Source: a phage. From it: a DNA stretch of 64,000 nt. Shown here in pieces: positions 37,117-53,171 of this stretch. The stretch is taken from the NCBI GenBank assembly GCA_024614665.1, contig GCA_024614665.1_4861.1. The stretch is one strand, 5' to 3'. The translations under genes were made by a program, and so were the position numbers. A model generated the notes under the pieces. The model was given only the letters and a program-made list of their open reading frames with translations. It was not told where the DNA came from and did no database searches. The stretch's first letter is position 1. Every line of letters begins with the position of its first letter.

Positions 37117-37326
37117 ATGAGCATTCGTGAAATCACCGCAGGCAGCGACGTTTCTGGTCTGGTAGAAGCAGGCACCGTTCAGGTTTCTGGACTGAGCACC
37201 GTTACCGAAGTTACCGAAGCGCTGGCTAAAAAAGCCGAAGCTGAAGGCGGCGTAGCATTCAAAGTTACCGCTTGTGGCGGCAACAACAAAATGTTCGGCA
37301 ACGCGATCTATTACGTAAACGCGTAA
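37117..37326 (+). CDS. DUF1471 (YdgH/BhsA/McbA-like) domain protein without signal peptide (69 aa)
   Basis: LAKKAEAEGGVAFKVTACGGNNKMFGNAIYY closely resembles the BhsA-type C-terminal region as I recall it (LAQKADEMGAKSFRITSVTGPNTLHGTAVIY); in-frame stop directly upstream of ATG; GGAG RBS. Confidence 0.5.
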   Translation: MSIREITAGSDVSGLVEAGTVQVSGLSTVTEVTEALAKKAEAEGGVAFKVTACGGNNKMFGNAIYYVNA

Positions 37327-37339: not shown

Positions 37340-37397
37340 AAAAAAAGATATAGGTACCCTACTCCCAACGGGAGTAGGGTTTACCTTTTATTTTTTT
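37340..37397. terminator. bidirectional intrinsic terminator
   Basis: A-run, stem ccctactcc/ggagtaggg, long T-run; between convergent genes. Confidence 0.6.
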
Positions 37398-38650
37398 CTT
37401 GCTTTGTAGCGATGCATTTCAACAAACGGCTTACCCCAAGCCCCGAAAGGCCCGACGATTGCCTGCGCGTCGTTTACCAAATTCTGGTTATACCAACGTG
37501 CGTTCCCCAACAAAAAGTTTTCCCGGTCGAAGAATGTGGTATTGAAAACCCACTCCCCTTCTTCCCAGGTCGGCCAGTACCCTACACATTTACCAATACG
37601 GTTAAAGATAGGACCTAGCGTTTTCTTCCCATCTGGGTCAGTTGGGTCTTTTAAATAGAACCGGCCCCAGATAGCGTTGTGGCTTATTCCGTGAATCTCT
37701 TTTTCGAGATACGGGTTGTCTATCGTAAAGATAAACGAGGATTCGTGCGTCAGCAACGCTTTTAACGTTTCTGAGTTACGAATACGTTGAACGGACGTAG
37801 GCGTACTTAAATCACCTACACCGATGGCGTCCCAATCGTAATAGCGACGGGTTTCCAATACAATCTTCGCCACGCTAAGGTTTGGCAGACTCAGCATAAT
37901 CGCACGGTCGCTGAAATAGCCCTGCGGTGGCAACCAATGCAGAATACCCCCGATGACGAACCCAACGGTTTTCCCTGTAATGGAATCGGGTAAGGTCAAC
38001 ATTAACGAAGAATAGTAATCTCGCGTAGTATCGAGTTTGTTCATCGTTAAACCGGATATGGGGTAGGTCTTTACTTTACCGATGTTTGCCATCACCAGAC
38101 AGCCGATGTCAGGTGTATTGGCACGCCGCACGATGTTACCAGCGCCAGTTAAGCGAACACCCACTGGGTCAGATTGGTGAGGTACCCATTGACCGTTGAT
38201 GTTGTACAGTACCCCGGTACGGTATTTCTCTTTCCACTCATCGTCGCAGACTACAACAACGTCATGTGCATCATCAGGATTGAAGTCCTGAGTGTAATGG
38301 TACCCAGGAGGGCATAGGTGCGTTTCTACGGGCACATCTGCATTAATAGACTGGTAGTGTGCCTCAACGAATTCGAGCTTCGGTAGGCCCTTCCCAAGCG
38401 TTGGAATCGCGATTCCTGACTTGGTGTTTAACCAATCTTGCAACGTGTCCGTACGGTTTTGTAAATCTGCCAGGTGATACTGGCTATAGAAGGTATATTC
38501 AGCACCTAGTGCTTCTAGTCCTACTTCGAAAAAGTGGTAGTTAGCACAAAGGGTATTTAAGGGCTGCGTGACATCGATGGTTCCCCAAGTTCGGGTGTCT
38601 CGAGAGAAGCCAAAAGCGCTGTCGGCCCGCACTTGATAAGCAGTAGTCAC
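37388..38650 (-). CDS. hypothetical protein (420 aa)
   Basis: Long minus-strand ORF between plus-strand structural genes. Confidence 0.5.
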   Translation of the reverse strand: MTTAYQVRADSAFGFSRDTRTWGTIDVTQPLNTLCANYHFFEVGLEALGAEYTFYSQYHLADLQNRTDTLQDWLNTKSGIAIPTLGKGLPKLEFVEAHYQSINADVPVETHLCPPGYHYTQDFNPDDAHDVVVVCDDEWKEKYRTGVLYNINGQWVPHQSDPVGVRLTGAGNIVRRANTPDIGCLVMANIGKVKTYPISGLTMNKLDTTRDYYSSLMLTLPDSITGKTVGFVIGGILHWLPPQGYFSDRAIMLSLPNLSVAKIVLETRRYYDWDAIGVGDLSTPTSVQRIRNSETLKALLTHESSFIFTIDNPYLEKEIHGISHNAIWGRFYLKDPTDPDGKKTLGPIFNRIGKCVGYWPTWEEGEWVFNTTFFDRENFLLGNARWYNQNLVNDAQAIVGPFGAWGKPFVEMHRYKARKK

Positions 38651-38717: not shown

Positions 38718-41700
38718 ATGGCTGTCGTCCCTGACCCGCACTATCAAGAACCGGGGAATATGCAGACCGGTGAAGCGGTAACGCCGATCGGTACTAAGTA
38801 CCGGATGCTGTTCCCCGCACACGCCCCCTTTTATACCACATCCCTGGTGGTCAAGAGTGGCGGCAAGAAATTAACATTAGGTGATGATTACGTCATCACC
38901 CATGCGTACGTTACGGGCATGGCCCGCACTGGTCATGTTTGTCACGGCGGCGTGTGGATTACCAACCCGAAATATCAGAGTGGCTTTACACTCGATTACC
39001 ATGCAATTGGTATCGGTGAAGCCACTGCAGAAATGATCGCCGCAGAACGAGAAGCGAATAAAGATCGCTATCCTGTAGACTGCCAATGGGATAACGTCAT
39101 TGGGGATTTATATTTCCCACCGGTCGATATTAAGTTCGACTGGGAAAACTGGCGTGGTGAATCCGAACTGATGGAAGCGATTGCCGAGATCGGACAGAAG
39201 ATCGCGACATTACCACCGATACCCGATCCGATGGCAAATAACACCGCAAAATACGTTGATAACGATTTAGTTGAACCGAACTTTACGTACGATAACGCCG
39301 GTGGCTTCGTTACTAATACGAACAAAGCTGACCAGTATAGCACCTTAGGGTCAAGGACGTATTCTCTTGGTGACTATAAGTTCCAGGCAACGTATACATT
39401 ACCAAGTTACTACTCGACAACCACTACGCCGTACTGGTGGTTCACGCTAATCGGGTACTGGGGATCGCCTTTCCGCAAGGCAACGCTTGAACTTGTTAAC
39501 GGTAACACTTTCCGCTTCCTAATTACCTACGACTCGTTTGACAAAAAAGAAACGTTCGTCTGGGCAACTTTGCCGGTTGGGATTGATTTCTTCAAGAAGC
39601 CTTTTACAGTTACCATTGACCGTAAACGTGCGGCCCGCACCATCGAATTGACTATTACGCAGGATTCGAAGGTCGTTTTACACTCGCTGATGGATATGAA
39701 TAATCCACCGGCAGAGTTTGCGACCAGGTTTACACAACTGGGTATTGCGTCGACGCTGGATCGCAATACGGACTTCCGTTTCCGTCACATCAGCAGCATC
39801 GGCGATAAAGTGTCTTTTAGGGCTCTTCCAGGCGCAGTCATTGAGGCCCCTGATGGCTCAGATGTACTATCGATACTCAAAAAGTATCACGCATTAGTTG
39901 ACCAACTGTACCGAGGCGCGCCAGCGCACGCGCACGTGCCGCGCAAGGATAACCCACATCGCGATTCGTGGGGTGCAATCCGTGCTTTGGAAAATAACGG
40001 TATTGCTTCGGACGCGACACTGGTATACGGAAAAACGCAACCGCAGCTGACAGATTACGTTAACAATCTGTTGCCGAAACTGTCAACGCTGGCGAATAAG
40101 CTTTTGCGTTTACCGGCGGCTGCACAGTCTATCAGCGGCACGTTCGGCATGAAGCCTGGCCTGACTTCGATAACGTCAGCAGTGGGTACCGATGAGTCTG
40201 AAGGCGTGGGTGCGCAATTCACGGTTGACCCGAGGGTTATCCGTTTTATTGGACGCGATTCGCAAACCGTTAACGCCGGGAACAACCCGATCACATGGCA
40301 AGGCGGTGCTAACCAACTCATCCTTTATCCGGATTCCCGTGGATTGGAGTTCAACGGTAAGAAACTGTTGGACCCTACTACGGTCGGGCCGTATTTGCCG
40401 GGTAACGAGTCAGGTGGCGATGGACTGTTTTACGGAACTTCCACAGCTACTGTAACCATTAACGGTAACGGTATTCAGTCTGTTCCGTTTATTTGTACCT
40501 TTGTTCCACCGGAGTCCGATGACCTTGGCCTGATGGCTGTCCGTTTGTTGGCTACTGAATTCGGCGATCGTGAGGACTTGGCCGCAACGCCGGCACTCAT
40601 CAAGAAATTGGATCAGCAGTTTACGGGCAAGTTGGTTGCCGTTAAATCGTACATCAACGACATGCCACTGACGAGTTCTATTTACATCGATAAAACTAAC
40701 TTTGGCTTATCGAACGTACAGAACGTCCCAGATGTACAATTGCCGATTTCCCCGCTCCAACAAGCTGAGCTGGACAAGTATGCAGTCGTCGGTCACAAAC
40801 ACACTTCTGCTGCGTTCGGGATTAAGCGTGCAACAACGACGGAGTTCGGTTTAGTACAGTTCGGCACCGCGGTTGACGATGCCACGCTGGCATTAGACGG
40901 CGGTGTGGTCATCCGACAGGCGGACGCCATCACAGAGATAGAGAAGGTTGCGAAGACGGTCGACTCTGGTGCTGCAATCGACATTATTCGTTACGGTTTA
41001 CCCGGCACAGATATCATTGAAAACGGCATCACTTACACCGACTGGATGGTTACTATTAAAGCGAACGATTATTTCGTTGGTCGCGAGTACAAAGTACCTC
41101 TTTCCACATTTAACTTGGCGGAGCTATTCCCAGCAACGCACGAGGATGCTGAGTTTGGCGTGTATGTTGACGTGGCAGGCAACGATGCTAAGTATATTAT
41201 CTACGAAAATCCAAATACGGCAGAAACTGAGACGATGACCAAAATAGGTTCCATCATCACCAGTGAAACCGGTGTGGTGTTTGTAGAAATCCGCAACGTG
41301 ACGCGTTTAGGTGAGTTCCGTGAATTAGGCGAGCATATCGAGGATGATAACGCCCATATTCGTCGGGGTATGACGCAAGCTGAATTCGGATTTACTTACG
41401 GTACGGGCGGGCCTGTGTGGTCCACGGGTGCACCGGGTACAAAACGTATAGATGCTGATTGGCGTTACGCGCAGGCTAACAGCTATACGCCTATGTTGGA
41501 AGCGGACTACGATCCGGCTGCTGACAAATGGACGTTTAAAACAACCAGTTTATCTGTAGCCGATTATCGTTTTGTCCACAACACATTCCCGATGTTCCAG
41601 AATAACGGCATTACCGCGACGTGGACACCTTTAACCGCAACAGCGGACAGTGTGCTAGAAACGGTAATTGGGTGTTGCCATCACTCGGCCACGTTCATGC

Positions 41701-42422
41701 ACCGTATTTCTGTACTCGTCGCACGCACCGCAGGGCGTATTACCACTCCAGGCGGCGTGAGCACGTATGCGGGAATCGCGGTTAACTACGGACGTGCTGC
41801 ACAGGTTGTTATTGGCCTGAATGGTGTCACTGGTTCTGGCCGAGACTGGACGGCACTTAATCCATCGGTGCGTTTCAGCCACACGCGAACAGCGGACGGT
41901 ATTTCGTTCGAGGGAACGATTAACATCGATTCCAAAACGATTAACTTTGAGTTGACGCTAACCGCGACAACAAAGACGCTGAAATACACCTTGCAGTCGA
42001 CCGGCGAGTCGTGGACTGAAGATTTGTCTACCCGTCTCCGTCCTGACTATATTGACTTGACGAAACTGATTACCGATCCGAGTACGCCGATTTATCACGG
42101 CATGGGTGGTTTGTTTAGTTCCGACACAGAAGTGCGTTTGACCTACGCTAACCTGAACACGATGCCGACAAAGAATCGTTATTACGCCACGTTCCTTGAT
42201 TATGCGATTAACTATTCCGGCTTAAACCGCGCAAGATTCTTTACTGGCGTGGTGGAAGCAGGTTCAACGATTAATGAGATGAACAGCGAGATGTGCAACT
42301 ATTCATACAGTTCGTTCCGACCAGTGGATACAGGTAAAATTCCGCCGGCGGCACACCCATCCAAGATGATGACGTTCAATCCGCAAAACACGTCAGGTCG
42401 AACACTTATTATTCGTGATTAA
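38718..42422 (+). CDS. large tail fibre / receptor-binding-like structural protein 1 (1234 aa)
   Basis: Very large ORF with AAAGGAG RBS; N-terminal domain shared with next three proteins (APFY...LGDDYVI...GVWITNPK); fibre role is inferred from size and arrangement. Confidence 0.55.
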   Translation: MAVVPDPHYQEPGNMQTGEAVTPIGTKYRMLFPAHAPFYTTSLVVKSGGKKLTLGDDYVITHAYVTGMARTGHVCHGGVWITNPKYQSGFTLDYHAIGIGEATAEMIAAEREANKDRYPVDCQWDNVIGDLYFPPVDIKFDWENWRGESELMEAIAEIGQKIATLPPIPDPMANNTAKYVDNDLVEPNFTYDNAGGFVTNTNKADQYSTLGSRTYSLGDYKFQATYTLPSYYSTTTTPYWWFTLIGYWGSPFRKATLELVNGNTFRFLITYDSFDKKETFVWATLPVGIDFFKKPFTVTIDRKRAARTIELTITQDSKVVLHSLMDMNNPPAEFATRFTQLGIASTLDRNTDFRFRHISSIGDKVSFRALPGAVIEAPDGSDVLSILKKYHALVDQLYRGAPAHAHVPRKDNPHRDSWGAIRALENNGIASDATLVYGKTQPQLTDYVNNLLPKLSTLANKLLRLPAAAQSISGTFGMKPGLTSITSAVGTDESEGVGAQFTVDPRVIRFIGRDSQTVNAGNNPITWQGGANQLILYPDSRGLEFNGKKLLDPTTVGPYLPGNESGGDGLFYGTSTATVTINGNGIQSVPFICTFVPPESDDLGLMAVRLLATEFGDREDLAATPALIKKLDQQFTGKLVAVKSYINDMPLTSSIYIDKTNFGLSNVQNVPDVQLPISPLQQAELDKYAVVGHKHTSAAFGIKRATTTEFGLVQFGTAVDDATLALDGGVVIRQADAITEIEKVAKTVDSGAAIDIIRYGLPGTDIIENGITYTDWMVTIKANDYFVGREYKVPLSTFNLAELFPATHEDAEFGVYVDVAGNDAKYIIYENPNTAETETMTKIGSIITSETGVVFVEIRNVTRLGEFRELGEHIEDDNAHIRRGMTQAEFGFTYGTGGPVWSTGAPGTKRIDADWRYAQANSYTPMLEADYDPAADKWTFKTTSLSVADYRFVHNTFPMFQNNGITATWTPLTATADSVLETVIGCCHHSATFMHRISVLVARTAGRITTPGGVSTYAGIAVNYGRAAQVVIGLNGVTGSGRDWTALNPSVRFSHTRTADGISFEGTINIDSKTINFELTLTATTKTLKYTLQSTGESWTEDLSTRLRPDYIDLTKLITDPSTPIYHGMGGLFSSDTEVRLTYANLNTMPTKNRYYATFLDYAINYSGLNRARFFTGVVEAGSTINEMNSEMCNYSYSSFRPVDTGKIPPAAHPSKMMTFNPQNTSGRTLIIRD

Positions 42423-42434
42423 GGAGATTTTTGA

Positions 42435-45400
42435 ATGAAAACGTATCCTTACGATCCTCGGGGTGTAAATCCCGAGTGTCACTTCATCGAGGAACGTATC
42501 ATCGACTCCGACAATCCTAACGATCGGGTGGTGATGCTAGATCATCGCCCGTTTTTCGAAGGATTGGTGGTAACGCTCGCCGGCTCGTCCATACCGCTTA
42601 CCCGCGGGACGGACTATGAGCTGGAGTATGCTTTAACACCGTTGGACGACTCGGTGACGACCCCGGTGTTCTGTGGGGTGCATCTTATTAACCCTAAACT
42701 GCGTGGTGCAGTGGTCTTTGAAGGCCAGATGCTCGGGGGTACGTTTTACAGTGGTCTGATTGAGATGTTGGATGAGCTAATTAAGGCTCTCAACAATCCA
42801 ACGGCTGCAGATTGGCTGCTTTTAGGTAATCGACCTTCCCTGTACCCAGCCACCCCTGCAGCGGTAGCTTGGTCAGACATGCTGAATAAAAAGTATGTTG
42901 CCTCTGCAGTGCATGATGTGGAGTTAGATGCCGGGGCGGCCAACGAGCAGATTCGTGAAAAGCTTACCGAGCTGAAAGATACGGTTCTGGCCTTAGGAAC
43001 TGAAATCGCCACATTTAACTACCCCGGACACATTGCGTCCACTAACCCTCATGGGACTACCGCGGCGCAGGCCGGTGCGCATCCTGTCAACCTGAAAACG
43101 CCAGATACTTTCCTGGCGTACGGAAAGACGTTGCGTCAGTTAACCAGCGAGGTCCGTGCACTGGGTCTGCAGCAATCGGATATCGACAAGTACATTTCTA
43201 AATGGGTATCGAAAGAATCCAAAGGGGTGTTTAATGCGACGATATCTGGTACTCGTGCCCTGTTCCGTTCTCCTGCTGGCGAATCTGAAATTGTGTTCTC
43301 TGCTGAGGCTTTCACTCTTAAATCTAATGGCTCTGTTGTGTTGGCGTGTGGGTATGCCGATACTACTGGAACCGTCCGGTTTATGGAGTGGAAAGCAGGC
43401 ATCAATACATTACGTATTGAGTCGACTGGCAGTGCCTTGGGGATGGATAAGCTGACGCTTAACGGAACAACGTTGCTGACCACCACCGCTCTCATGGGCT
43501 ATCAACAAGACCCTGGTGCCGGCGGTGGTACCGGCGGTGGTACCGTTGACCCGGATGACAATAAACTGTACATTAGCGGGGTGAACGGCATTACTTTCAC
43601 GGGTAAAGGGTCAAAAGCCGATCCCGTCGCCGGGAAGGTCACAGCCAAGCCAGCGACGACCTCTGAACCCGGCGTTGTGACGCTAACTGATAAGCCGAGC
43701 GATGTAGTCAAAGGACAAGCAGCCACCCCAGCTTCGCTCTTACCGTACGAGGGTGATCTGTCTTCGTACGTCAGGAAGACAACACTGCTGAATAACCAGC
43801 CGATGGACACTGGTAGCCGAACGCTAACGAAAAAGGATTTGGGTCTGGACTTGGCTGATAACACAGCTGACGTCGATAAACCACTTTCTGATTCGTTGGC
43901 AGAAGCAGTTACTGGTCTTAGTGATAAAGGCCACCATCACAACTTCGCCGATTTACAGATCCCAACGGCTTCTCAAACAGTTCCCGGTATCGCTCGATAT
44001 TCTACCAACCTAAATAGCTTGTCGGATAATCGCGGCGTTACCCCGAACGTACTGAACGATTTGTCAAAACGTTTAGACGTAGTTGCAGCTGCGCTAGCAA
44101 ACGCGAAAGAGGACACCGTGACCGATTTTGCCGCTGTGCGCGGTAAGACTTGGACTGTGGGGTCTTCACGTACCACCCTCGCCGTAACGGATTTGAATTA
44201 TTTCTATCTGTTAAATGGTGCACGTAAAGAGGGGACGGTATCCGGTTCGATAGACCTGCAAACCACGCCGATGTTCCAGTGGTTCTCTCCAGATAACCGT
44301 ATGGAAAGAACGTGGCAGAACGCGGTAATCAATACCGGTGCCGGTATTGATTTTAGTGGGTTTGAGGTTGCCGTCCCGGAAACGGACTACGGTGCCCAGA
44401 TTGGTTTAACGACAACCGGAATGGGTGATTTGTCGGTCGTTAACCTCTTGGCGAAAACGTGGGTTCGTTGCGACTCTGGTAAGCTGCGGATTTGGGTTCG
44501 TGGCGGTGGTGCTGTTTCTGTTTATCTAGACGGTGAAATTATCGCTGCGGGTATTACAGAAGCGGGGTATCTGGAGGCGACTGTCAAGGAGGGGTGGAAG
44601 CAACACTGCTTAGCATTCCGTGCCGAGTGTAACGATAGCGCTAAAGCAGCCGCAATTCGTTTCACAATTTACGACGGTGACTTTGCGGTTGGGGCCTCGG
44701 ATAAAAACACCAAAGTTGCCCGCCTGCAGGAGTTTGTTAAGACACCGAATGGTTTAAGGCATTACCTCTATGTGAACATGATAACCGATGCGTTATATTC
44801 GCGCGCCGAACCTATTGTGGACACGGATGGTATTAACCTGGAGCGCGGGTACATTGGTTACATTGATGTGCCCGAGACGGGATTGGTTGCAGGTACGACT
44901 TACGAGTTTGAAACGACGTTTGATTTTGGCATGGCGTCCGAACTTAAACGGCACTTCGAAACACGTCTGGCGCACGGAGTGAGTAATACCGACTGGTCGT
45001 TGACGGATAACCCGAAAATGCTGCCGTTGAATAAGGTTGATCCGTTACCTAAACAATGGCTGTACGCGTATCCAACTAACCCGTCAGTTTCTGGGGATAA
45101 CCTCGTTCGTTTAGATCGTGGGTTATTTGATTATAAATTCGTAAGTGCCACCTCGCTCACGATTCTTCTTGCGGCGGTTGTTTCCACTGAAAACGCGTCC
45201 CCGTATTGCTGGTTTACACCAAGCAACCCGAAAGAAAATGGAATGGCGACATTCGAGGGTTCGGTGGTAATCGACACTGATTATCCTGAAGTCCCAAAAA
45301 CCTCGGACGTCGAAGTTTCATTAAACTTCATGGCCCCTTCTGCTGATGGGAAAGGTAAAACCAGAGTTCTGCAGTGGAGTAATTCCAAGACCAGTTTAAA

Positions 45401-46577
45401 CTGTGGCTTTATTGCTGCGCCGTACGATAAACCAACCGGAAGAATTGCCAGCACACAATCCAGCGTTACTAATACGCTGGTTGATGCTCCTCGTGTAATC
45501 AAGAGCGTGGAAGTTCAGTCGCCTGACTGTTTAGACTATCTCCCGGTTTCAATCGCTAGCGAGTTCGCAGCCATTGGTTCACGCTGGCTTATTCGTTATC
45601 GCTATATTGTTGATACGCAGATACTGCGAATATCGACGATTAGTAAGATAGGTGGCCAGGCTTCGGCAACTGTTCGTGAGATAGAATACGACATTCCGTT
45701 TGACGCGATTGATTATTTTAAAGGTGGCGCTTTATCGATTAGTGTTACTGGCATCGAAACTGGTGAAGGCGTCACAATCAACCACGGTTTGATGGACCCC
45801 TCCACAACAGAAGTAGATTTAAATCGTTTCCATTATCTACGCTCATTATTTGAGTCGTATATTGAGCGTTCTCCAGACACCCAGTCTTCTGGGCATGAGG
45901 AGATGTCGATATCAACCGTCACGTTCGCGAACTTTGGAGATAACGTCGATAACCCGGTTACGGAATACATCACGTTGTCTGCTGCAGGCGAGGGTTATCC
46001 GGAACTTGCACCGAATGGTAAACTCCCTGCACCGTTTTACAAAGGACTGCAGAAACGTGGTGCTCCGCTACTTGAGTCGGCTCCTACAGACTATACGTCT
46101 AACGGTGGTGAATGGAAGTACGGCTTTATGCGGGCTTATCGCCCAACTCAAAATGAGCGTTTTGTGTCGGTAAATGGGACAATGCTCTCTAACTACCCTG
46201 GATACATCATCGTGGGTAGTGAGAAAATTCCGGGTAATGTTATACCTTTCAGTGCATCGACAACAGCTGTTCAGATATCTGGGACTCTTGCCCGCACGAA
46301 ACCGATGCAGCCAATTCACATCGTGTTCGTGCCTCCGGAAGGTTCTGTGCCGCCACTGCAAGCGAAGTTCACTATTAATGGTGTGGGCAGTAGTGGTAAT
46401 CCGTTGTTCGTGATTACTGAAACGACACCGGTGGAACTTCGCACAGGTGGCGAGACGGTCCTCATTGAGAAGCGTAATCCATTCCACATCCCCACCAGGA
46501 CATGGGATTGGATTTTACAAACGTTGGATACTGAACGTAGAAACGAAGGCAACAACTCGGGTGAGTGGGCCTCTTAG
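42435..46577 (+). CDS. large tail fibre / receptor-binding-like structural protein 2 (1380 aa)
   Basis: AAGGAG RBS; N-terminus RPFFEGLVV...GTDYELEYA...GVHLINPK; Gly-rich linker GGGTGGGT. Confidence 0.55.
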   Translation: MKTYPYDPRGVNPECHFIEERIIDSDNPNDRVVMLDHRPFFEGLVVTLAGSSIPLTRGTDYELEYALTPLDDSVTTPVFCGVHLINPKLRGAVVFEGQMLGGTFYSGLIEMLDELIKALNNPTAADWLLLGNRPSLYPATPAAVAWSDMLNKKYVASAVHDVELDAGAANEQIREKLTELKDTVLALGTEIATFNYPGHIASTNPHGTTAAQAGAHPVNLKTPDTFLAYGKTLRQLTSEVRALGLQQSDIDKYISKWVSKESKGVFNATISGTRALFRSPAGESEIVFSAEAFTLKSNGSVVLACGYADTTGTVRFMEWKAGINTLRIESTGSALGMDKLTLNGTTLLTTTALMGYQQDPGAGGGTGGGTVDPDDNKLYISGVNGITFTGKGSKADPVAGKVTAKPATTSEPGVVTLTDKPSDVVKGQAATPASLLPYEGDLSSYVRKTTLLNNQPMDTGSRTLTKKDLGLDLADNTADVDKPLSDSLAEAVTGLSDKGHHHNFADLQIPTASQTVPGIARYSTNLNSLSDNRGVTPNVLNDLSKRLDVVAAALANAKEDTVTDFAAVRGKTWTVGSSRTTLAVTDLNYFYLLNGARKEGTVSGSIDLQTTPMFQWFSPDNRMERTWQNAVINTGAGIDFSGFEVAVPETDYGAQIGLTTTGMGDLSVVNLLAKTWVRCDSGKLRIWVRGGGAVSVYLDGEIIAAGITEAGYLEATVKEGWKQHCLAFRAECNDSAKAAAIRFTIYDGDFAVGASDKNTKVARLQEFVKTPNGLRHYLYVNMITDALYSRAEPIVDTDGINLERGYIGYIDVPETGLVAGTTYEFETTFDFGMASELKRHFETRLAHGVSNTDWSLTDNPKMLPLNKVDPLPKQWLYAYPTNPSVSGDNLVRLDRGLFDYKFVSATSLTILLAAVVSTENASPYCWFTPSNPKENGMATFEGSVVIDTDYPEVPKTSDVEVSLNFMAPSADGKGKTRVLQWSNSKTSLNCGFIAAPYDKPTGRIASTQSSVTNTLVDAPRVIKSVEVQSPDCLDYLPVSIASEFAAIGSRWLIRYRYIVDTQILRISTISKIGGQASATVREIEYDIPFDAIDYFKGGALSISVTGIETGEGVTINHGLMDPSTTEVDLNRFHYLRSLFESYIERSPDTQSSGHEEMSISTVTFANFGDNVDNPVTEYITLSAAGEGYPELAPNGKLPAPFYKGLQKRGAPLLESAPTDYTSNGGEWKYGFMRAYRPTQNERFVSVNGTMLSNYPGYIIVGSEKIPGNVIPFSASTTAVQISGTLARTKPMQPIHIVFVPPEGSVPPLQAKFTINGVGSSGNPLFVITETTPVELRTGGETVLIEKRNPFHIPTRTWDWILQTLDTERRNEGNNSGEWAS

Positions 46578-46578
46578 G

Positions 46579-46652
46579 ACGGACTGCCTACGGGCGGGTA
46601 GTCCGTAGGTAAACCGCCCTTCCGTTATTGGGAGGGCGGTCTCCGTTTTATT
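46579..46652 (+). terminator. tandem hairpins + T-run between fibre genes (terminator/attenuator)
   Basis: acggact...agtccgt stem then accgccct/agggcggt stem followed by CTCCGTTTTATT. Confidence 0.4.
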
Positions 46653-46672
46653 ACAGATTAGGAGTGTTTGCA

Positions 46673-49600
46673 ATGCCGAGAGAAGATGCGGCGCAGTTTA
46701 ACGGTACGCTCAGTACCGCTACTTACCCGAACCGTTATTCGGCGGTCATTCCCGTCGAAGCACCGTTCTATCGCATCGGGTTAACGTTAACCGTTACCGA
46801 TAAAACAACCGGAACCAAACGCAAGTTAATAGAAGGTCTTGATTATTTCTTAGGACATTACTTCCAGGAATTAGCCGAGGCTGAGAACGATGCAATATAC
46901 GGCAGCATAATGCTGCTGAACGCCACAGAGGTAGAATACGAGTTGTTGTCGGTTGGTCGACAGTATCGCATCCCTGCTTCTGAAATCGGCAAGTATCTGG
47001 TTAAGACAGATATGAAAGACCCGCGTAACTGCGATTGGTCTGAGCTGATGAAATATCCGCCGATTATCTCGCCAATCGACCCGCCAAAAGACCTCGAAGA
47101 AGCGATTCTTCGCGATGAAATCGTAAAGGCGTTGGAAGATATCCGTCTGGGTATTTTAGAGCGCGCCCACGAGCTGGATGAGGCTTTTGCCGAAGTTACC
47201 GATTTGATTTATCAGAACGGTAAGCAGGTGTTTGAAGATGAGATGTATCAGCACCACCTGGTTAAAAACGCACACGGTTACACCTGCGGTGATATTGGCG
47301 CTCTCCCGGTACTCGGCAAAGCCGTAGATGCGACTAAGGCATTCGGACGTACCCTGGCAGAGCTAGTGACGTTAATGTCTACCAGCGGCATCCAACAGAA
47401 ACACGTTGACATGCTTCTGGATAATACCCTGGGTGATTTACTGGGCCGTATGCGTGTTCTGAATAACGACGCGATTACGTTCCAAACAACGTCTGGTCAC
47501 GTTATCAGCATGAAGGGTGAGAAGTTCATCATCACCTCGACAAAACCGCTGGTATTAAAAGCTGACCAGGATAACAACGAACCGGGTATCGCTACGGAGT
47601 TCAGTGCTGGTCTGAACACGCTTTGGGTTCACTCGGGTAAAGCAGGTGACAAGTGGGGCGATTATGATGCGGGTGTGCTTGCACCTGTGTATAATAGCGT
47701 GTATCTCGTTACACCGGATATGGTTAAGATGTACTTGACCTCGGTGAAGATACTTCCAGCAAACGCCTACTTCAAGTCCAGCGACACGTTGAAGATTTAT
47801 GGCTCTGGTAAAGAAACAAACAAAGTTTACATGAATGCGGAGCTGCCTGCAGCAACCACAACTGTGCAGGGTTTGTTTGCGATTACTAACCTTTCGGCGT
47901 CCGCTGCATCGTCCACAGCGATTTCCCAAAAAGCTGTTACTGACTTGAAGAACAAACTCGACGGATATGTGGACGACACGTATACGGTCAACGGCAAAGG
48001 GTTTGTGTTAGACGAAAACGGTCAAATGCATTTAACCTTAACCGCGTCGGATTTCGGTATTGAGAAGATGAACAATACCGGGCCGCTGGAGAAACCGGTT
48101 ACTAATGCGTTGCGCACCGTGCTATCAGGCAAGGCACTCTCAACACACACCCACACCATTGCTGATCTCGATGACGTGCCGTACGCATCCACATCTGTTA
48201 CAGGTTTGGCTAAACTGTGGGATGCTATTGACACCACAACAGATAAGATGGTTACTGCCCGCCAGGGTTTCTTGCTCGAACAGAAGATCGGTACACTGAA
48301 CGACAAGATTGCTACGTTGTTGCCAGCATGGACCGTTGGCGGATCGTCGTACGGTAACAATAACTTCTTGCCTATACCTGTCCAGGGGAACTACGAAGGG
48401 TACACCAAAAACCAAACTTGGCAAAAAGGACTGGCGCGTTACGAGGCTGGTAAGGTTTACTCGTTGCGTAATGGTTCCAACGGTAACGCCCCTGCTGACT
48501 GGGCTATCTATTACGCCTATGCTGATGTGTCGCCAAGCAATACGCTGGAAAATATGCAGCAGACGTCCGTACGTTATCACCCCGCTGGAATGTCGGCGTA
48601 TCCTGGGGTGAATCTGGTTGCTATTCTGATTACCGGTACAGATGCAATGATCTGCTTAGGCAGTGACGGTGCGTATTACCTGGTCATCTTTGACGGCACC
48701 ATTGACCATGCAAAACATCATCGTGTTGTTAAAGTTTACTTGGGCGATTACCGAAATGGTAACGCGGCCGGTGTGATTACAACCGCACCATGGGTTGCCG
48801 ATCCATCAACAAACGATTTGATCGTTTGCAACGATCGGGTTTATCTGCTCCGTACTGTGCTTACCTCCGGTGACTATTTCGTGAGTATGCGTAGCATCGC
48901 ACTCGACGAACTTAATCTGGGTGGTAGCAACACGTTTGTGGCGGATGTGTTAACGGGTGGGATGTTAACGTCGGGAGATAATATCTACTTGCGTCAGGGT
49001 CAGAAACGTTCTGATACAGATGTGTTGGTAGCGCCAGTAACACAAATCTACGCAGACGCATCGGCGAAGTGGAATAGTGCGCGAAATTTCGTCCATGGTC
49101 CGGAATGTAATCACGCGATTGCTGTGGATGGGCTGAACTTTCGTGTTGGTTTAACGCCAACAGTCTGGTTTGCTTCTACTACAGGGCAAACTATTAACTT
49201 TAAACAATGGGTGTCAAGCTTTGTTGTTGATTGCAGTTCAATGACGGTAACGCTGGAAGGGGCTGATCGATTCCCTATTGTGGCTGATCTTACCGCGGTT
49301 CGTTATAACGGTGGTGCTGAGATTGGGATTCCGAGCTGGAAGTGGGGCGAAGGTCAAGCTAATAACCGAACCTTTGCAACATCGCAAGACAAGTATATTG
49401 TTTCGCAAGGACTTTCAGGCGATCGCGACCTAATGCCTTATGTCAGGATTACAACGTTAGATGACGGTGTGAGTTGGTACGAGTACCTGTCGTGCGACTA
49501 CAACTTCACTGCCAGAAGTTTTAGTGCGGTAATGTTAAACCAAGGACGTGGTTCTATCTACGAGCTGGGTATGGCGTATCCGCTGACTCTGGGAGCGAAT

Positions 49601-51856
49601 TCCAGACTTATCTGGTTGTCACAACCGCGTACCCGTTTGGCAATTGAAGTTGAGTTTGATCCGAACACCACTTACTCAGGTAAGGCGGGGTATGGCCCAA
49701 CTAACAATCGTCGTGTAGTAGATTCTATCACGTATGAGAATCTGTCGCAGATGTGCCACATTGTTACACCGGCGTCGCCTGGTACAGAGTTAAACGGCTG
49801 GTATTGCACAGGACCAGAAACATTCCCTTACCACAACGTTTCCGGCACTTTCACGATTCATGCCGATCGATTGACGCTGTCACAAGCTGAATGGAATAAG
49901 ATGAAGCAGATGATCATCGACGGAGCACCGGCAGGCGCTGCGAATGGTTATGCTTCGGAATTTATCCTTGCTGCAAATAACGCAGGAAAGGCATTGTTTT
50001 CCGTTTGGTTCATCGGCATCGGAACGGCCACACCGCTCACATTAGCACAAGTAGCATGTACACGTACTGTGAACAATGTTAACGTGTTAGATATCTACTA
50101 CTTTACACTGAAACCAACAATCAGCAACGGGCAGGTAACATTCCCCGCAGCGATATTGGCACTGTTTGACTTCTATAACAACCTCGTCTATGGCTTGAAC
50201 TATGCTACGTTGGGAGAGATAACGGGAGGAAAAACACGCCGGCCGGGACAACCTACCATGGTGTCGGTAGATGGTACGCAGTTCGGGTTGTATCTTCCAC
50301 ACACGTTAACCTTGCGCCAAATTGGCGACTTGGGTGCGCTTAACTACGGTGTCGGTCTTACGCTGTCTAATGGTACCTGGACGCGTTCTTCTGCCCCGCG
50401 CGGCATTGGACGCATGGCACCATCACACACTCCAGTCAGCCCAGCTTATCTGGCTCATCGTGATCAGGTGATGCTACACAACTCATCTCTCGACTACGTC
50501 TATTGTGGTGGTATCGCAATGTCGTCGAGTGATTTTGTCGCGGCTCCTAATTTTAGTGGCCCGACTGAATCGGTCGTCATTGCTGGTGTGGAAACAGCCG
50601 AAGGTTGGCTGGTATATGTGACTGAGGAAGTTAACCTGCGTTTCGGCTCGAGCACTTATAAGCTGCCTACGTGGTATATTGACCTCAGCGCAGCGTTTCC
50701 AACAAACCATCAGAACCGGACATTCTACCTGCACGCCAAGGTAGAAAATGGTACACCGAAGTACGTAATGGACGTGATTCAACATCCAGACACTGAAACG
50801 GAACTCTATATCGGGTATGTTAAAACGGGCTCGTCGCGAGTCGTCGAGACTAATGTCGAACATGTTAAGCGCTTGGGTGCGGTGAAACAGCTGTTGGAAC
50901 ACGCAGCAGTTGAGAATAAGCACGATGTGGAAGTGGGAAGGGATGCAGCAACGGGCAGACTGGCACCATTACGTAAAGAAGCGATGGGTCCTTTGTCTAT
51001 CGATGGCAAGAAAGGCTATCTGGATAGTCAGTTGCTTTATACCGTATCTGACGCACAGCGTCGCGGTAAAGCGATGGTGTCCAAACGTTTCGAAGGCTTG
51101 AAAACCTTGCCGGTGTTTACTCAGGCAAACAAGTCGGGGGCGTTTTGGAAACATCCTACAACAATTGCGACGGTAACGGCCGATGAGAACGGTGAAGCGG
51201 CATCGTTGGGAATGGAGTGGGTAGGTATTCCAACGCCCGCCTTCTCTCCGACCACAACATACGCGATGGTGATGATACAAAGTAAATTCGTCGTCCCAGG
51301 TACACCTGGAGTGGAAACAACCTTTAATGTCAACATCGCCCCATGGGAGACGGTAGAAATGTTTTTCTACAACGTCGAGGCGGAAGGTAAGGATGTTAAC
51401 ATTGATGAAAGTTCAGAACTGTTAACGCCGAGACCACATACCGTGTATCACGAACAGCACTCTCTGCCCGCAGGCGTGCCATGTACGTTTACTTTCGTTG
51501 GTGTGTTGAGTTCCTCAGCGCTTGAGATGGCCAACCAGCATATTTGCTCTTGGCTTTTCACGGACGCGGGGGGACTACCAATCACCACCGATCTTTCGGA
51601 TAGTAAGATTCAAATCTTTCCAGCGGCGGGAGAGACCAACGGCACACCAGTTGTTTTTAACAGCCGTAGCTACACGTTTGTGGATGTGGCGGGTGCAATT
51701 CCGGTTGTTACCACGGGCGCTCAGGGTTTATACCCACCACCGATCGTGGCGTGGGATGGCGATGATCTTACGTTAACGATTGCGCACGATTGGGTGAACG
51801 AGAGAGGATGGCAACAGGCTAATGTTATCCAGGTCAATCTTATGTTCCGTACCTAA
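46673..51856 (+). CDS. large tail fibre / receptor-binding-like structural protein 3 (about 1727 aa)
   Basis: Start at ATG with AGGAG RBS (track ORF begins at upstream TTG); N-terminus APFYRIGLTLTV...LIEGLDYFLGHY. Confidence 0.55.
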   Translation: MPREDAAQFNGTLSTATYPNRYSAVIPVEAPFYRIGLTLTVTDKTTGTKRKLIEGLDYFLGHYFQELAEAENDAIYGSIMLLNATEVEYELLSVGRQYRIPASEIGKYLVKTDMKDPRNCDWSELMKYPPIISPIDPPKDLEEAILRDEIVKALEDIRLGILERAHELDEAFAEVTDLIYQNGKQVFEDEMYQHHLVKNAHGYTCGDIGALPVLGKAVDATKAFGRTLAELVTLMSTSGIQQKHVDMLLDNTLGDLLGRMRVLNNDAITFQTTSGHVISMKGEKFIITSTKPLVLKADQDNNEPGIATEFSAGLNTLWVHSGKAGDKWGDYDAGVLAPVYNSVYLVTPDMVKMYLTSVKILPANAYFKSSDTLKIYGSGKETNKVYMNAELPAATTTVQGLFAITNLSASAASSTAISQKAVTDLKNKLDGYVDDTYTVNGKGFVLDENGQMHLTLTASDFGIEKMNNTGPLEKPVTNALRTVLSGKALSTHTHTIADLDDVPYASTSVTGLAKLWDAIDTTTDKMVTARQGFLLEQKIGTLNDKIATLLPAWTVGGSSYGNNNFLPIPVQGNYEGYTKNQTWQKGLARYEAGKVYSLRNGSNGNAPADWAIYYAYADVSPSNTLENMQQTSVRYHPAGMSAYPGVNLVAILITGTDAMICLGSDGAYYLVIFDGTIDHAKHHRVVKVYLGDYRNGNAAGVITTAPWVADPSTNDLIVCNDRVYLLRTVLTSGDYFVSMRSIALDELNLGGSNTFVADVLTGGMLTSGDNIYLRQGQKRSDTDVLVAPVTQIYADASAKWNSARNFVHGPECNHAIAVDGLNFRVGLTPTVWFASTTGQTINFKQWVSSFVVDCSSMTVTLEGADRFPIVADLTAVRYNGGAEIGIPSWKWGEGQANNRTFATSQDKYIVSQGLSGDRDLMPYVRITTLDDGVSWYEYLSCDYNFTARSFSAVMLNQGRGSIYELGMAYPLTLGANSRLIWLSQPRTRLAIEVEFDPNTTYSGKAGYGPTNNRRVVDSITYENLSQMCHIVTPASPGTELNGWYCTGPETFPYHNVSGTFTIHADRLTLSQAEWNKMKQMIIDGAPAGAANGYASEFILAANNAGKALFSVWFIGIGTATPLTLAQVACTRTVNNVNVLDIYYFTLKPTISNGQVTFPAAILALFDFYNNLVYGLNYATLGEITGGKTRRPGQPTMVSVDGTQFGLYLPHTLTLRQIGDLGALNYGVGLTLSNGTWTRSSAPRGIGRMAPSHTPVSPAYLAHRDQVMLHNSSLDYVYCGGIAMSSSDFVAAPNFSGPTESVVIAGVETAEGWLVYVTEEVNLRFGSSTYKLPTWYIDLSAAFPTNHQNRTFYLHAKVENGTPKYVMDVIQHPDTETELYIGYVKTGSSRVVETNVEHVKRLGAVKQLLEHAAVENKHDVEVGRDAATGRLAPLRKEAMGPLSIDGKKGYLDSQLLYTVSDAQRRGKAMVSKRFEGLKTLPVFTQANKSGAFWKHPTTIATVTADENGEAASLGMEWVGIPTPAFSPTTTYAMVMIQSKFVVPGTPGVETTFNVNIAPWETVEMFFYNVEAEGKDVNIDESSELLTPRPHTVYHEQHSLPAGVPCTFTFVGVLSSSALEMANQHICSWLFTDAGGLPITTDLSDSKIQIFPAAGETNGTPVVFNSRSYTFVDVAGAIPVVTTGAQGLYPPPIVAWDGDDLTLTIAHDWVNERGWQQANVIQVNLMFRT

Positions 51857-51903
51857 CAGATAGCGCTATGGGGCAAGGAAGCCCCAATCAAAGGAGTTTG
51901 GCA

Positions 51904-53106
51904 ATGGCCGAAATCATTTATCAGTACCCGCTCGACCTTACCGGGACATTAACGTCGAACGCCGTTACGCGGCGTATTACGTTAGGTTCTGGTAAAGTTA
52001 ACCGGGCTTTTGCATTTCCTGACGGAGCTTTCTACGCGGATACTTTCCGCTTAGCGGCTGCGAACAAACCGGGTGTCTACCCGTACAAACGTGGTACAGA
52101 CTACGAGCTGATTTTTGCACATACTGCATATCAGAAAATGACCAAGAACCGCGAAGTGGTCATGGGTGTGGTGGTAACTAACTCGGCCATTCCTACAGAT
52201 ATCGAAGTCTCTGCGCAAGTCGTTGGTGGTTTTCAGTCTGCGAACGTCGAAGGCATCCGACAAGCGATTGCGTCGTTGAAAATTGAAGACCGCGTGGTGG
52301 ACTTCAAGGATCTTCGGAACGTACCCGATACGTTCCCGTCCGCACCGACGTATAAAGACCTTGGCGATATCTACGGTTTTGAGTACATCATTACCGTGCT
52401 CGCGGGGATTAAAGATGCGATTAACTCCGGCTCTGCAGTACAGCTGGAAGAAATTAAAGGTATTCTGGACGGTCTGAAAAACGACTTCCTCGATGCCTTA
52501 AATACCCACATCAACGCCGAAGGTAACGTACACAATCTCGACATTCATCAGGTTAATGGCCTGACGGAGACGGAGATTCGTGCTCTGATTCAAAGTGTAC
52601 AGACTGCCATTGACGCCACTATCAGAGATATCGGCGACTTAAGAGCAGCAGACACGGCGTTGGGGCAACGCATCGATGCAGTTGTGGCTTCGTTAGCCGC
52701 GTGGAACGACCAGCTTAATGTAGTTGCTCAAAATTACCAGAAAATGTCGTTAGCATTAGCTAACCTTAATTCTCTGGTGTTGCAATTACAGAAGAAGGTT
52801 AATGATCTTCAGTCTGCGCTGAATGAAACAAATCAGCGTGTCACGGATCTTGAGAATCAAGGCAAAGACTTCCAACAGCAAATTGATAACCTGCAAGGAC
52901 AAATCAACAGTCTTAAAACTCAGGTTGTAAACAACACCAACGCAATTTCGCAGGCAAACCAGAATCTGGCGAACCATGCGGCTGCGGATAACCCACACCC
53001 GAATTACCTCCATAAACAGTATGGCGGTGTTGTGCAGGCTGCTGTTCACGTCAACAACAACCTCACCTCGCGCGACGATGTTCAAGCTGAAGCGGGTACT
53101 AAGTAA
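51904..53106 (+). CDS. fibre-like protein with shared N-terminal domain and C-terminal coiled coil (about 400 aa)
   Basis: Start at ATG with AAAGGAG RBS; N-terminus GAFYADTF...KRGTDYELIFAH; heptad-like Q/N/L-rich C-terminus. Confidence 0.5.
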   Translation: MAEIIYQYPLDLTGTLTSNAVTRRITLGSGKVNRAFAFPDGAFYADTFRLAAANKPGVYPYKRGTDYELIFAHTAYQKMTKNREVVMGVVVTNSAIPTDIEVSAQVVGGFQSANVEGIRQAIASLKIEDRVVDFKDLRNVPDTFPSAPTYKDLGDIYGFEYIITVLAGIKDAINSGSAVQLEEIKGILDGLKNDFLDALNTHINAEGNVHNLDIHQVNGLTETEIRALIQSVQTAIDATIRDIGDLRAADTALGQRIDAVVASLAAWNDQLNVVAQNYQKMSLALANLNSLVLQLQKKVNDLQSALNETNQRVTDLENQGKDFQQQIDNLQGQINSLKTQVVNNTNAISQANQNLANHAAADNPHPNYLHKQYGGVVQAAVHVNNNLTSRDDVQAEAGTK

Positions 53107-53113
53107 CTTGTTT

Positions 53114-53160
53114 ACGAGCCGGACTATGTTTATGGACATAGTCCGCTCGTTCTACTTTTT
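53114..53160 (+). terminator. intrinsic terminator separating fibre module from Cys-peptide cassette
   Basis: cggactatgt/acatagtccg stem, then TCTACTTTTT. Confidence 0.5.
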
Positions 53161-53171
53161 AAGGAAGCGTA

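What the first reader, a model, noticed from the sequence alone, without database searches (positions are those of the whole stretch)
38718..53106. Four consecutive giant fibre-like proteins share a conserved N-terminal domain
Seen: the N-termini of the 1234-, 1380-, about 1727- and about 400-aa proteins share a motif block ([AR]PF[YF]...L.V...G.DY.[LI]..., then GV..[IL]NPK in the first two), while the remainders diverge. Inference: a common anchoring domain attaching several distinct fibres or spikes to one baseplate site, i.e. a multivalent adsorption apparatus with several receptor specificities; the divergent C-termini are likely host-range determinants and recombination hotspots.
Basis: partly seen in the sequence, partly recalled or inferred. 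Interest (0 to 1): 0.5.

Follow-up and report, generated by a model that had tools for sequence, protein, structure and literature searches.

The report
Jumbo-phage tail fibres, shared anchor domain
Four neighbouring genes of a Salmonella SPN3US-like giant phage encode tail-fibre proteins that all start with the same baseplate-docking domain, a real arrangement that is already described for SPN3US and phiKZ.

Summary
The window is an SPN3US-like Salmonella jumbo phage, and the four ORFs are orthologues of SPN3US gp170, gp169, gp168 and gp167. A profile built only from the first 230 residues of phiKZ gp131/133/134/135 hits exactly these four of 359 window ORFs (E 3e-24 to 2e-8; next best 0.36).

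The shared unit is the "gp131-like N-terminal domain". In the 2026 phiKZ cryo-EM atlas, six copies of this domain plus a six-helix bundle dock each fibre under baseplate protein gp130. The window gene just upstream on the opposite strand is a gp130 homologue.

Two corrections:
- The three large proteins also share a ~420-residue stem and a ~100-residue module.
- The fourth protein is short: anchor plus coiled coil, nearly invariant.

Variation within the genus is concentrated in P1 residues 145-400 (an allele unique to this window, closest to an Erwinia phage), P2 residues 850-1200 and the P3 C-terminus. The anchors are 98-100% identical.

The paralogue family, its tail location and its link to phiKZ gp131-135 were published in 2008-2026, so this is ordinary. 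How the chains combine at each docking site is unresolved.

The parts
37388..38650 (-). Divergently transcribed gene for the homologue of phiKZ gp130 (SPN3US gp171), the outer-baseplate protein under which the fibres dock in phiKZ.
   Evidence: A profile of SPN3US-like orthologues hits phiKZ gp130 at E 2e-32 over residues 11-404. Gene order and orientation match phiKZ gp130/gp131-135 and eleven other jumbo-phage loci. It is an essential tail protein in SPN3US (PMC5105663).
38718..42422 (+). P1, 1234 aa, orthologue of SPN3US gp170. Order of modules: anchor, inserted variable cassette, stem, module C, unique distal part.
38721..39137 (+). P1 gp131-like N-terminal anchor domain (aa 2-140).
   Evidence: phiKZ-only HMM E 1e-13. 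hhalign gives 97-98% to P2, P3 and P4. It is 98-100% identical in six Seoulvirus phages.
39150..39917 (+). P1 inserted cassette (aa 145-400), a mosaic allele unique to this window.
   Evidence: Nucleotide identity to SPN3US is 35-50%, between flanks of 97-100%. Amino-acid identity to five other Seoulvirus phages is 14-44%. The best relative is Erwinia phage ChrisDB at 74%. No Pfam match.
39885..41048 (+). P1 stem module (aa 390-777), with the H..NPH motif and tail-fibre repeat motifs.
   Evidence: hhalign to P2 127-553 and P3 179-549, probability 83-99%. BLASTP P1 412-734 matches P3 199-531.
41016..41384 (+). P1 module C (aa 767-889).
   Evidence: Matches P3 1302-1427 at E 3e-20 and P2 772-848. 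BLASTP E 1e-10.
42435..46577 (+). P2, 1380 aa, orthologue of SPN3US gp169. Anchor aa 3-147 (42441-42875), stem aa 150-568 (42882-44138), module C aa 770-853 (44742-44993), variable distal region aa ~850-1200.
   Evidence: Two allele groups exist within Seoulvirus, falling to 50-54% identity in aa 950-1050.
46673..51856 (+). P3, 1727 aa, orthologue of SPN3US gp168. Anchor aa 15-136 (46715-47080), stem aa 148-578 (47114-48406), module C aa 1302-1427 (50576-50953), variable aa 700-800 and 1500-1727.
   Evidence: gp168 is a tail protein and 'expected essential' (PMC5105663).
51904..53106 (+). P4, 400 aa, orthologue of SPN3US gp167. Anchor aa 7-156 (51922-52371), helix plus H..N.H motif to aa ~230, long coiled coil aa 222-361 (52567-52986). 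Nearly invariant.
   Evidence: phiKZ-only HMM E 3e-24; closest to phiKZ gp135/gp134. AF2 models. 96-100% identical in every 50-aa bin across the genus. Absent from tailless particles.
46578..46672 (+). Structured P2/P3 intergenic element: two hairpins inside an outer stem, followed by a U-tract.
   Evidence: MFE -51.6 kcal/mol. Terminator-like scan hit at 46613-46640. The same architecture occurs in Asesino and ChrisDB.

Best explanation
The region is the tail-fibre (outer baseplate) gene set of an SPN3US-like jumbo phage. It comprises orthologues of SPN3US gp170, gp169, gp168 and gp167, plus the divergently transcribed platform gene gp171.

**The anchor.** Each of the four proteins begins with the gp131-like N-terminal domain. 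This is a ~100-residue beta domain, then a W..P..FPP loop, a helix and an H..NPH motif. By homology with phiKZ, this domain is the anchor. Six N-domains and a six-helix bundle form the base of each fibre, and that base docks beneath the gp130-family platform protein on the outer baseplate. phiKZ carries twelve such bases per virion.

**Consequence for this phage (inferred).** Four different paralogues must share these six-domain sites, so each site holds chains of more than one kind. The result would be a composite, probably branched, adsorption organelle.
- The anchor, and the stem shared by P1-P3, are kept constant because they must fit the platform and each other.
- The distal modules are free to diverge and recombine, and presumably contact the host surface. 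These are the P1 cassette aa 145-400, P2 aa 850-1200, and P3 aa 700-800 and 1500-1727.
- P4 has only an anchor and a coiled coil and does not vary. It is most likely a structural partner in the fibre base, like phiKZ gp133-135.

**Shown versus inferred.**
- Shown here: the homology, the module map, the synteny and the variation pattern.
- Taken from the literature on orthologues: virion and tail location.
- Inferred: docking geometry, stoichiometry and receptor binding.
For: **Identity of the locus**
- 97% nucleotide identity to SPN3US, with the same gene order.

**Homology of the anchor to phiKZ gp131/133/134/135**
-. Only these four of 359 window ORFs are hit.

**Platform homologue and synteny**
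- The gp130 homologue lies adjacent and divergent, E 2e-32.
- Tandem N-domain genes next to the gp130 homologue are found in all 12 jumbo-phage loci examined.

**Docking role in phiKZ**
- PMC13250141.

**Virion and tail location of the orthologues**
- gp167-171 are detected in virions and are absent from tailless particles.

**Tail-fibre character**
- The stem hits 'minor tail protein' and 'tail fiber' families.
- The W..P..FPP segment matches a tail collar fibre in PDB 9d93.
- Of 72 short family members, 14 carry Peptidase_S74, 2 carry Collar and 1 carries Gp53-like_C.

**The domain as an N-terminal adaptor**
- 3409 cluster representatives match, always at residues 1-230, in proteins of 219-2164 aa.

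**Structure**
- The AF2 model of P4 1-230 has pLDDT 84, with the beta domain above 90.

**Conserved anchor, variable distal cassettes**
-.
Against: - No structure or adsorption experiment exists for SPN3US-like fibres. The phiKZ fibre base itself was modelled by fitting AlphaFold3 predictions into 4.4-4.6 A local maps, and its authors call it a 'candidate' complex.
- The distal parts of P1-P3 match no known receptor-binding or enzymatic family, and no solved structure by sequence. Receptor binding is therefore unproven.
- The phiKZ gp131 C-terminal beta-propeller is not present here.
- The number of N-domain paralogues varies between phages (2, 3 or 4), so stoichiometry cannot simply be copied from phiKZ.
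- Spectral counts per kDa for gp167-170 are roughly equal. This does not fit a 3:1:1:1 composition.
Confidence: 0.8

Rival explanations
1. Four separate homotrimeric fibres. Each paralogue forms its own trimer, and two trimers sit side by side at each six-domain docking site. With two sites per baseplate sector, this gives six trimers of each of the four kinds per virion. This differs from the best explanation only in how the chains combine.
For: - Spectral counts per kDa are roughly equal for gp167, 168, 169 and 170.
- Four paralogues x 3 chains = 2 sites x 6 domains, in SPN3US-like phages, pVa-21, phiKZ and 201phi2-1.
- Phages with two paralogues fit 3+3.
- Peptidase_S74 intramolecular chaperone domains are known from homotrimeric fibres and spikes (established knowledge). 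They occur in 14 of 72 family members.
- The P4 coiled coil resembles trimeric viral coiled coils.
Against: - The phiKZ atlas fits gp131x3 + gp133 + gp134 + gp135 into each site.
- P1-P3 share a homologous 420-residue stem, which would also allow a heterotrimer.
- RAY has three paralogues.
- Spectral counting is only semi-quantitative.
Confidence: 0.4
2. The proteins are structural struts of the very large outer baseplate, not receptor-binding fibres. On this view the shared domain is an assembly module without a role in host range.
For: - No recognisable receptor-binding or depolymerase domain.
- P4 is invariant.
- gp168 is 'expected essential'.
- The published label for gp168-170 is only 'baseplate/tail fiber candidate'.
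Against: - Localised hypervariable, recombined segments sit in otherwise near-identical genes, which is typical of host-contact proteins.
- P2's distal allele separates the E. coli-hosted EC001 and Lh1B (together with Salmonella phages SaP7 and JN03) from SPN3US.
- Tail-fibre motifs and fibre chaperone domains occur in the family.
- phiKZ gp131 was localised to the baseplate periphery and possibly to the fibres (Sycheva 2012, cited).
Confidence: 0.1
3. The shared motifs are chance or low-complexity similarity between unrelated large proteins.
For: Pairwise identity is only 17-21%, and BLASTP does not detect P1-P2 or P3-P4.
Against: - An independent phiKZ-only profile picks exactly these four ORFs with E <= 2e-8 against a background of 0.36.
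- hhalign probabilities are 87-99%.
- PHROG 2163 hits all four.
- 2691 representatives match at E <= 1e-10.
Confidence: 0.01

Closest known systems
SPN3US gp167-gp170: 'Paralog family C' = gp168, gp169, gp170 (Ali et al. 2017, PMC5694885; Thomas et al. 2016, PMC5105663)
   Same: These are direct orthologues with the same order and orientation. Amino-acid identity is 83% (P1), 98% (P2), 93% (P3) and 99.8% (P4). The family is described as baseplate/tail-fibre candidates similar to phiKZ gp131. The proteins are found in virions and are absent from tailless particles.
   Different: - The window carries a different allele of the P1 cassette (aa 145-400), not seen in any Seoulvirus record of the phage collection.
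- The 2017 paper lists only three family members. gp167 was paired with phiKZ ORF134 only in a supplementary table.
phiKZ gp131, gp133, gp134, gp135 fibre base docked under gp130 (Sycheva et al. 2012; structural atlas 2026, PMC13250141)
   Same: - The same N-terminal domain.
- The same tandem arrangement next to a divergent gp130 homologue.
- Four N-domain paralogues.
- P4 resembles gp134/gp135 in size and layout.
   Different: - phiKZ has one long protein (gp131, 771 aa, with a C-terminal seven-bladed propeller) and three short ones. This phage has three very long proteins with a shared stem and one short one.
- No propeller match.
- The small gp132 has no counterpart here.
201phi2-1 gp216-gp220 paralogues (GenBank EU197055 annotation)
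   Same: Annotated as mutual paralogues, virion proteins by mass spectrometry, similar to the phiKZ proteins, and next to gp215 (a gp130 homologue). Four carry the N-domain.
   Different: Sizes are phiKZ-like (459-741 aa), not 1200-1700 aa.
T7 gp17-type N-terminal tail-attachment domains and branched tailspike systems (T7 gp17, CBA120 TSP4, Klebsiella phage tailspikes)
   Different: There is no sequence family match. The scores sit among unrelated helical hits, so homology is not established. The attachment partner is also different.

Membership tests
gp131-like N-terminal domain fibre proteins of phiKZ-related jumbo phages | N-terminal ~150-230 residues match a profile of phiKZ gp131/133/134/135 | tested here: met
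   E 3e-24 (P4), 1e-13 (P1), 5e-12 (P2) and 2e-8 (P3); the next ORF in the window has E 0.36.
gp131-like N-terminal domain fibre proteins of phiKZ-related jumbo phages | The domain lies at the extreme N-terminus of proteins with diverse C-terminal parts | tested here: met
   The domain starts at residues 2-15 in all four proteins. In the 150 best representatives it occupies residues 1-230 of proteins 219-2164 aa long.
gp131-like N-terminal domain fibre proteins of phiKZ-related jumbo phages | Genes lie in tandem next to, and divergent from, the gp130-family platform gene | tested here: met
   The gp130 homologue is at 37388-38650 (-), E 2e-32. The same layout occurs in phiKZ, 201phi2-1, LucasX, RP31, Eowyn, RAY, pVa-21 and four SPN3US-like genera.
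gp131-like N-terminal domain fibre proteins of phiKZ-related jumbo phages | The proteins are part of the virion tail | not testable with these tools
   Literature on orthologues that are 83-99.8% identical: gp167-170 are found in virions by mass spectrometry and are absent from tailless particles.
gp131-like N-terminal domain fibre proteins of phiKZ-related jumbo phages | Six N-domains plus a six-helix bundle dock beneath gp130 | not testable with these tools
   Only monomer prediction was available. The monomer model shows the beta domain followed by helices at 159-204. The arrangement is known only from phiKZ maps.
phiKZ gp131 orthologues in the strict sense | C-terminal seven-bladed beta-propeller (the crystallised gp131 C-domain) | tested here: not met
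   P1-P3 have no sequence match to any PDB chain at E <= 1. Full-length family profiles match phiKZ gp131 only within its first 177 residues.
SPN3US Paralog family C | Orthology to gp168/169/170 by identity and synteny | tested here: met
   97% nucleotide identity over 91% of P1-P2. Gene-by-gene correspondence and identity profiles.
T7 gp17-type tail-attachment domain (Pfam Phage_T7_tail) | Sequence match to the family, or a clear fold match | tested here: inconclusive
Fibres and spikes with a C-terminal intramolecular chaperone (Peptidase_S74) | Peptidase_S74 domain at the C-terminus | tested here: not met
   No Pfam match in any of the four window proteins. The domain is present in 14 of 72 short family members.

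The most novel reading that the evidence does not exclude
The three giant paralogues P1, P2 and P3 might form one heterotrimeric fibre, held together by their homologous anchor, 420-residue stem and module C. P4 might form a homotrimer. Together they would give the six N-domains of each docking site. This would mirror phiKZ, where the long chain is the homotrimer and three short chains are the heterotrimer.

Each fibre would then end in three different tips. In addition, a horizontally exchanged, baseplate-proximal cassette in P1 (aa 145-400), here of Erwinia-phage type, would act as an extra host-range switch.

To my knowledge, heterotrimeric fibres built from three paralogous chains have not been described for tailed phages.
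Probability: 0.15. Interest if true: 0.55.

Novelty: already known. Interest (0 to 1): 0.2.

Why it matters
The finding correctly identifies the adsorption apparatus of a therapeutically relevant group of Salmonella and E. coli jumbo phages, and it shows where that apparatus is constant and where it varies.

The practical value is the map of exchangeable segments within the genus:
- P1 aa 145-400
- P2 aa 850-1200
- P3 aa 700-800 and aa 1500-1727

These are candidate host-range determinants for engineering or for explaining host-range differences. As biology it adds little. The paralogue family, its tail location and the docking role of the gp131-like N-domain are published.

Tried and rejected
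- **Word-indexed protein database.** Two searches with N-domain alignments returned only 6 and 8 proteins, mostly fragments. They were of little use for judging family breadth. The exhaustive representative search was used instead.
- **PDB by sequence.** There were no hits for P1-P3 and only coiled-coil noise for P4. A 23-sequence N-domain profile found only a weak match of the W..P..FPP segment to a tail collar fibre, 9d93. phiKZ gp131-N is not among the PDB sequences held.
- **Fold searches with the N-domain model.**
  - Foldseek against PDB gave nothing at E <= 0.001.
  - BFVD returned only other jumbo-phage family members.
- **Pfam.** There was nothing on the whole proteins or on six distal segments, apart from coiled-coil families on P4 and a sub-threshold DUF4465 hit.
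- **gp168 and phiKZ ORF145.** This pairing, from the 2016 supplementary table, could not be reproduced. Full-length family profiles do not hit phiKZ gp145 or gp146.
- **A fixed count of four paralogues.** I considered this as a rule and rejected it. LucasX, RP31 and Eowyn have two, and RAY has three.
- **First AF2 model.** The model of P4 built with a 9-sequence alignment was poor in residues 111-165 (pLDDT 64). It was replaced by the model built with a 73-sequence alignment.
Full report
**What the window is**

Megablast of 38718-46577 finds 97% identity to Salmonella phage SPN3US and its relatives in the genus Seoulvirus. The annotated SPN3US region has the same genes in the same order. By size, the four + strand ORFs correspond to four SPN3US proteins:

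| Window protein | Coordinates | Length | SPN3US orthologue |
|---|---|---|---|
| P1 | 38718-42422 | 1234 aa | gp170 (135.4 kDa) |
| P2 | 42435-46577 | 1380 aa | gp169 (149 kDa) |
| P3 | 46673-51856 | 1727 aa | gp168 (188.1 kDa) |
| P4 | 51904-53106 | 400 aa | gp167 (44.8 kDa) |

The mechanical ORF list starts P3 at TTG 46628 and P4 at ATG 51868. The TTG lies inside a strong intergenic hairpin. The related records start at the downstream ATGs.

There is one exception: P4 has GAFY rather than [AR]PF[YF] in this phage.

Raw similarity is low. Identity is 17-21% in a four-way alignment, and BLASTP sees only P2-P3, P2-P4 and, weakly, P1-P3. Profile methods settle the matter:
- PHROG 2163 matches the N-terminus of all four proteins (E 6e-14, 5e-23, 8e-89, 8e-109).
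- An HMM built only from the first 230 residues of phiKZ gp131, gp133, gp134 and gp135 contains no sequence from this phage group. Searched against all 359 stop-to-stop ORFs of at least 60 aa in the window, it hits exactly the four proteins (3e-24, 1e-13, 5e-12, 2e-8). The next best ORF has E 0.36.
- Profile-profile comparison of orthologue alignments gives 87-99% probability for all six pairs over the first ~140 residues.

**Anatomy**

Segment-wise profile comparison gives this module map.

| Module | P1 | P2 | P3 | P4 |
|---|---|---|---|---|
| N (anchor) | 2-140 | 3-147 | 15-136 | 7-156 |
| Stem (helix, H..NPH motif, tail-fibre repeat motifs) | 390-777 | 150-568 | 148-578 | not detected by segment-wise hhalign; AF2 shows helices to ~204, then H..N.H motif, to ~230 |
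| C (~100 aa) | 767-889 | 770-853 | 1302-1427 | absent |

- In P1 the stem is displaced by a ~250-residue insertion at 145-400.
- Everything else in P1-P3 is unique to each protein and matches no Pfam family and no PDB sequence.
- After its anchor and short helix, P4 has a ~140-residue continuous helix at 222-361.

So 'the remainders diverge' holds for the distal halves. It does not hold for the first ~570 residues of the three large proteins.

With a 73-sequence alignment, AlphaFold2 models P4 1-230 at pLDDT 84. The model has a beta domain (strands between residues 20 and 106, pLDDT above 90), a less certain loop carrying the conserved D/W..P..FPP segment, and then helices at 159-204. That loop segment matches a repeated motif in a solved tail collar fibre, 9d93 (E 6e-6).

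**Context**

The gene immediately upstream on the other strand (37388-38650) is SPN3US gp171. A profile of its orthologues hits phiKZ gp130 at E 2e-32 over almost the full length. In phiKZ, gp130 is likewise divergent from gp131-gp135.

The four-gene cassette is conserved in Erwinia phages Asesino, ChrisDB and Phobos and in Cronobacter phage CR5. In Vibrio phage pVa-21 it is interspersed with fibre-assembly genes.

Around the gp130 homologue, the number of ORFs with the N-domain varies between phages:
- four in the SPN3US-like loci examined (this window, Asesino, ChrisDB, Phobos, CR5), pVa-21, phiKZ and 201phi2-1;
- three in RAY;
- two in LucasX, RP31 and Eowyn.

An exhaustive HMMER search of 1.84 billion cluster representatives finds 3409 proteins at E <= 1e-3 and 2691 at E <= 1e-10. 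Among the 150 best hits, the domain always lies at residues 1-230, in proteins of 219-2164 aa.

Of 72 short members, 14 end in Peptidase_S74 (the intramolecular chaperone of fibres and spikes), 2 carry the phage tail Collar domain and 1 carries a gp53-like fibre C-terminus. Foldseek against predicted viral structures returns only jumbo-phage 'virion structural', 'tail fiber' and 'YomR' proteins, often several per phage.

**What is known**

- *201phi2-1:* the GenBank record already annotates gp216-220 as mutual paralogues, virion proteins and similar to phiKZ proteins.
- *Thomas et al. 2016:*
  - gp168 is stated to belong to a paralogue family found in phiKZ-related phages and to resemble gp131.
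  - The supplement pairs gp167 with phiKZ ORF134, gp169 with ORF133 and gp170 with ORF131.
  - It also shows gp167-171 present in complete virions and absent from tailless particles.
- *Ali et al. 2017:* gp168-170 are named 'Paralog family C, baseplate/tail fiber candidates'.
- *The 2026 phiKZ atlas:*
  - It reports fibre-attachment sites beneath gp130, two per baseplate sector and twelve in all.
  - The complex is modelled as gp131x3 + gp133 + gp134 + gp135. The models were AlphaFold3 predictions fitted into 4.4-4.6 A local maps, and the authors call the complex a candidate.

**Mechanism**

The best-supported reading is that the shared domain is the docking module. It fixes these proteins to the outer baseplate under the gp171 platform, in groups of six N-domains. 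Four paralogues share such sites, so each site should contain more than one kind of chain, giving a composite adsorption organelle.

How the chains combine is open. Two points favour equal copy numbers, for example four kinds of homotrimer with two per site:
- spectral counts per kDa are roughly equal for gp167-170;
- the Peptidase_S74 domains found in family members are known from homotrimeric fibres and spikes.

The homologous stems of P1-P3 and the phiKZ model would also allow mixed trimers. This could not be tested here, because only monomer prediction was available.

**Host range and recombination**

I compared six Seoulvirus phages in 50-residue bins.
- The anchors are 98-100% identical.
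- P4 is 96-100% identical in every bin.

Differences concentrate in a few places:
- *P1 aa 150-400.* The window's allele is only 14-44% identical to all five others. At the DNA level the boundaries are sharp: 97-100% identity falls to 35-50% between about 39150 and 39915. The closest relative of this cassette is Erwinia phage ChrisDB at 74% amino-acid identity. All other Seoulvirus records listed are at 26-28%.
- *P2 aa 850-1200.* There are two allele groups: window/SPN3US/1252 versus SaP7/EC001/JN03. Identity falls to 50-54% in aa 950-1050. In one search the E. coli-hosted phage Lh1B shows the same reduced identity over the P2 C-terminal region (79.5%, against 78.0% for SaP7 and ~97-98% for most others).
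- *P3 aa 700-800 and 1500-1727.* Identity is 74-90%.

Between genera, the N-terminal halves are also better conserved than the C-terminal thirds. Module C has weak matches in fibre-like genes of other jumbo phages, including rak2-like giants. The caveat is that the clearest exchange is internal and lies next to the anchor.

**Verdict**

The feature is real and correctly interpreted in outline, but it is an already described property of SPN3US-like and phiKZ-like phages. The points I did not find stated in the papers read are modest:
- a profile-level demonstration that gp167 (P4) is a full member of the family;
- the module map;
- the window-specific P1 cassette of Erwinia-phage type;
- the variation map within the genus.

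Interest is low.

Noticed in passing
window 46578-46672: The P2/P3 spacer folds into two GC-rich hairpins enclosed by an outer stem, followed by CCGUUUUAUU (MFE -51.6 kcal/mol). The same architecture with different hairpin sequences occurs in Erwinia phages Asesino and ChrisDB, with two compensatory pairs. It is absent in Phobos and CR5, where the spacer is 3-4 nt. It may be an internal terminator/attenuator or an RNA-stability element that sets relative expression within the fibre operon.
   Followed up: partly
window 53107-53171: A perfect 14-bp hairpin (GAGCGGACTATGT...ACATAGTCCGCTC) followed by a T-rich tract lies directly after the P4 stop codon. It is probably the terminator of the fibre operon.
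   Followed up: no
window 39150-39917: The P1 internal cassette has an allele found in no other Seoulvirus record of the phage collection (26-28% aa identity). It is 74% identical to Erwinia phage ChrisDB, which implies cross-genus exchange of a ~255-residue domain with sharp DNA boundaries.
   Followed up: yes
window ~55250-58545 (SPN3US L001 28533-31824): Two adjacent radical SAM genes and a DUF4376 gene lie a few kb downstream of the fibre genes. They are conserved at that position in SPN3US, Asesino, ChrisDB, Phobos and CR5. Their role near the fibre genes is unknown.
   Followed up: no
window ~37117-37326 (+): A small gene annotated in SPN3US as a DUF1471 domain protein (a family of bacterial periplasmic stress/biofilm proteins) sits between the baseplate assembly gene and the gp171 homologue. 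A small gene occupies this position in the related genera too.
   Followed up: no
phage records LR5359xx (SPFM1, 5, 7, 8, 9, 10, 12, 14, 15, 20); proteins P0010, P0011: These records match the fibre genes only in many short pieces. Their predicted proteins read like block-reversed versions of P1 and P4. This looks like an assembly artefact in those public records, not biology.
   Followed up: partly
window 50576-50953 (P3 aa 1302-1427); also P1 767-889 and P2 770-853: This ~100-residue module, shared by the three large proteins, has weak tblastn matches in fibre-like genes of distant jumbo phages (EL, Aeromonas D6, Ea35-70) and of rak2-like giants (GAP32, CBB, SP27). It therefore looks like a widely shared fibre domain of unknown fold.
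   Followed up: partly
loci L003, L008-L013: The number of N-domain paralogues beside the gp130 homologue is 4, 3 or 2 depending on the phage. Given six N-domains per docking site in phiKZ, these numbers constrain possible stoichiometries (3+3, 3+1+1+1, or pairs of homotrimers).
   Followed up: partly
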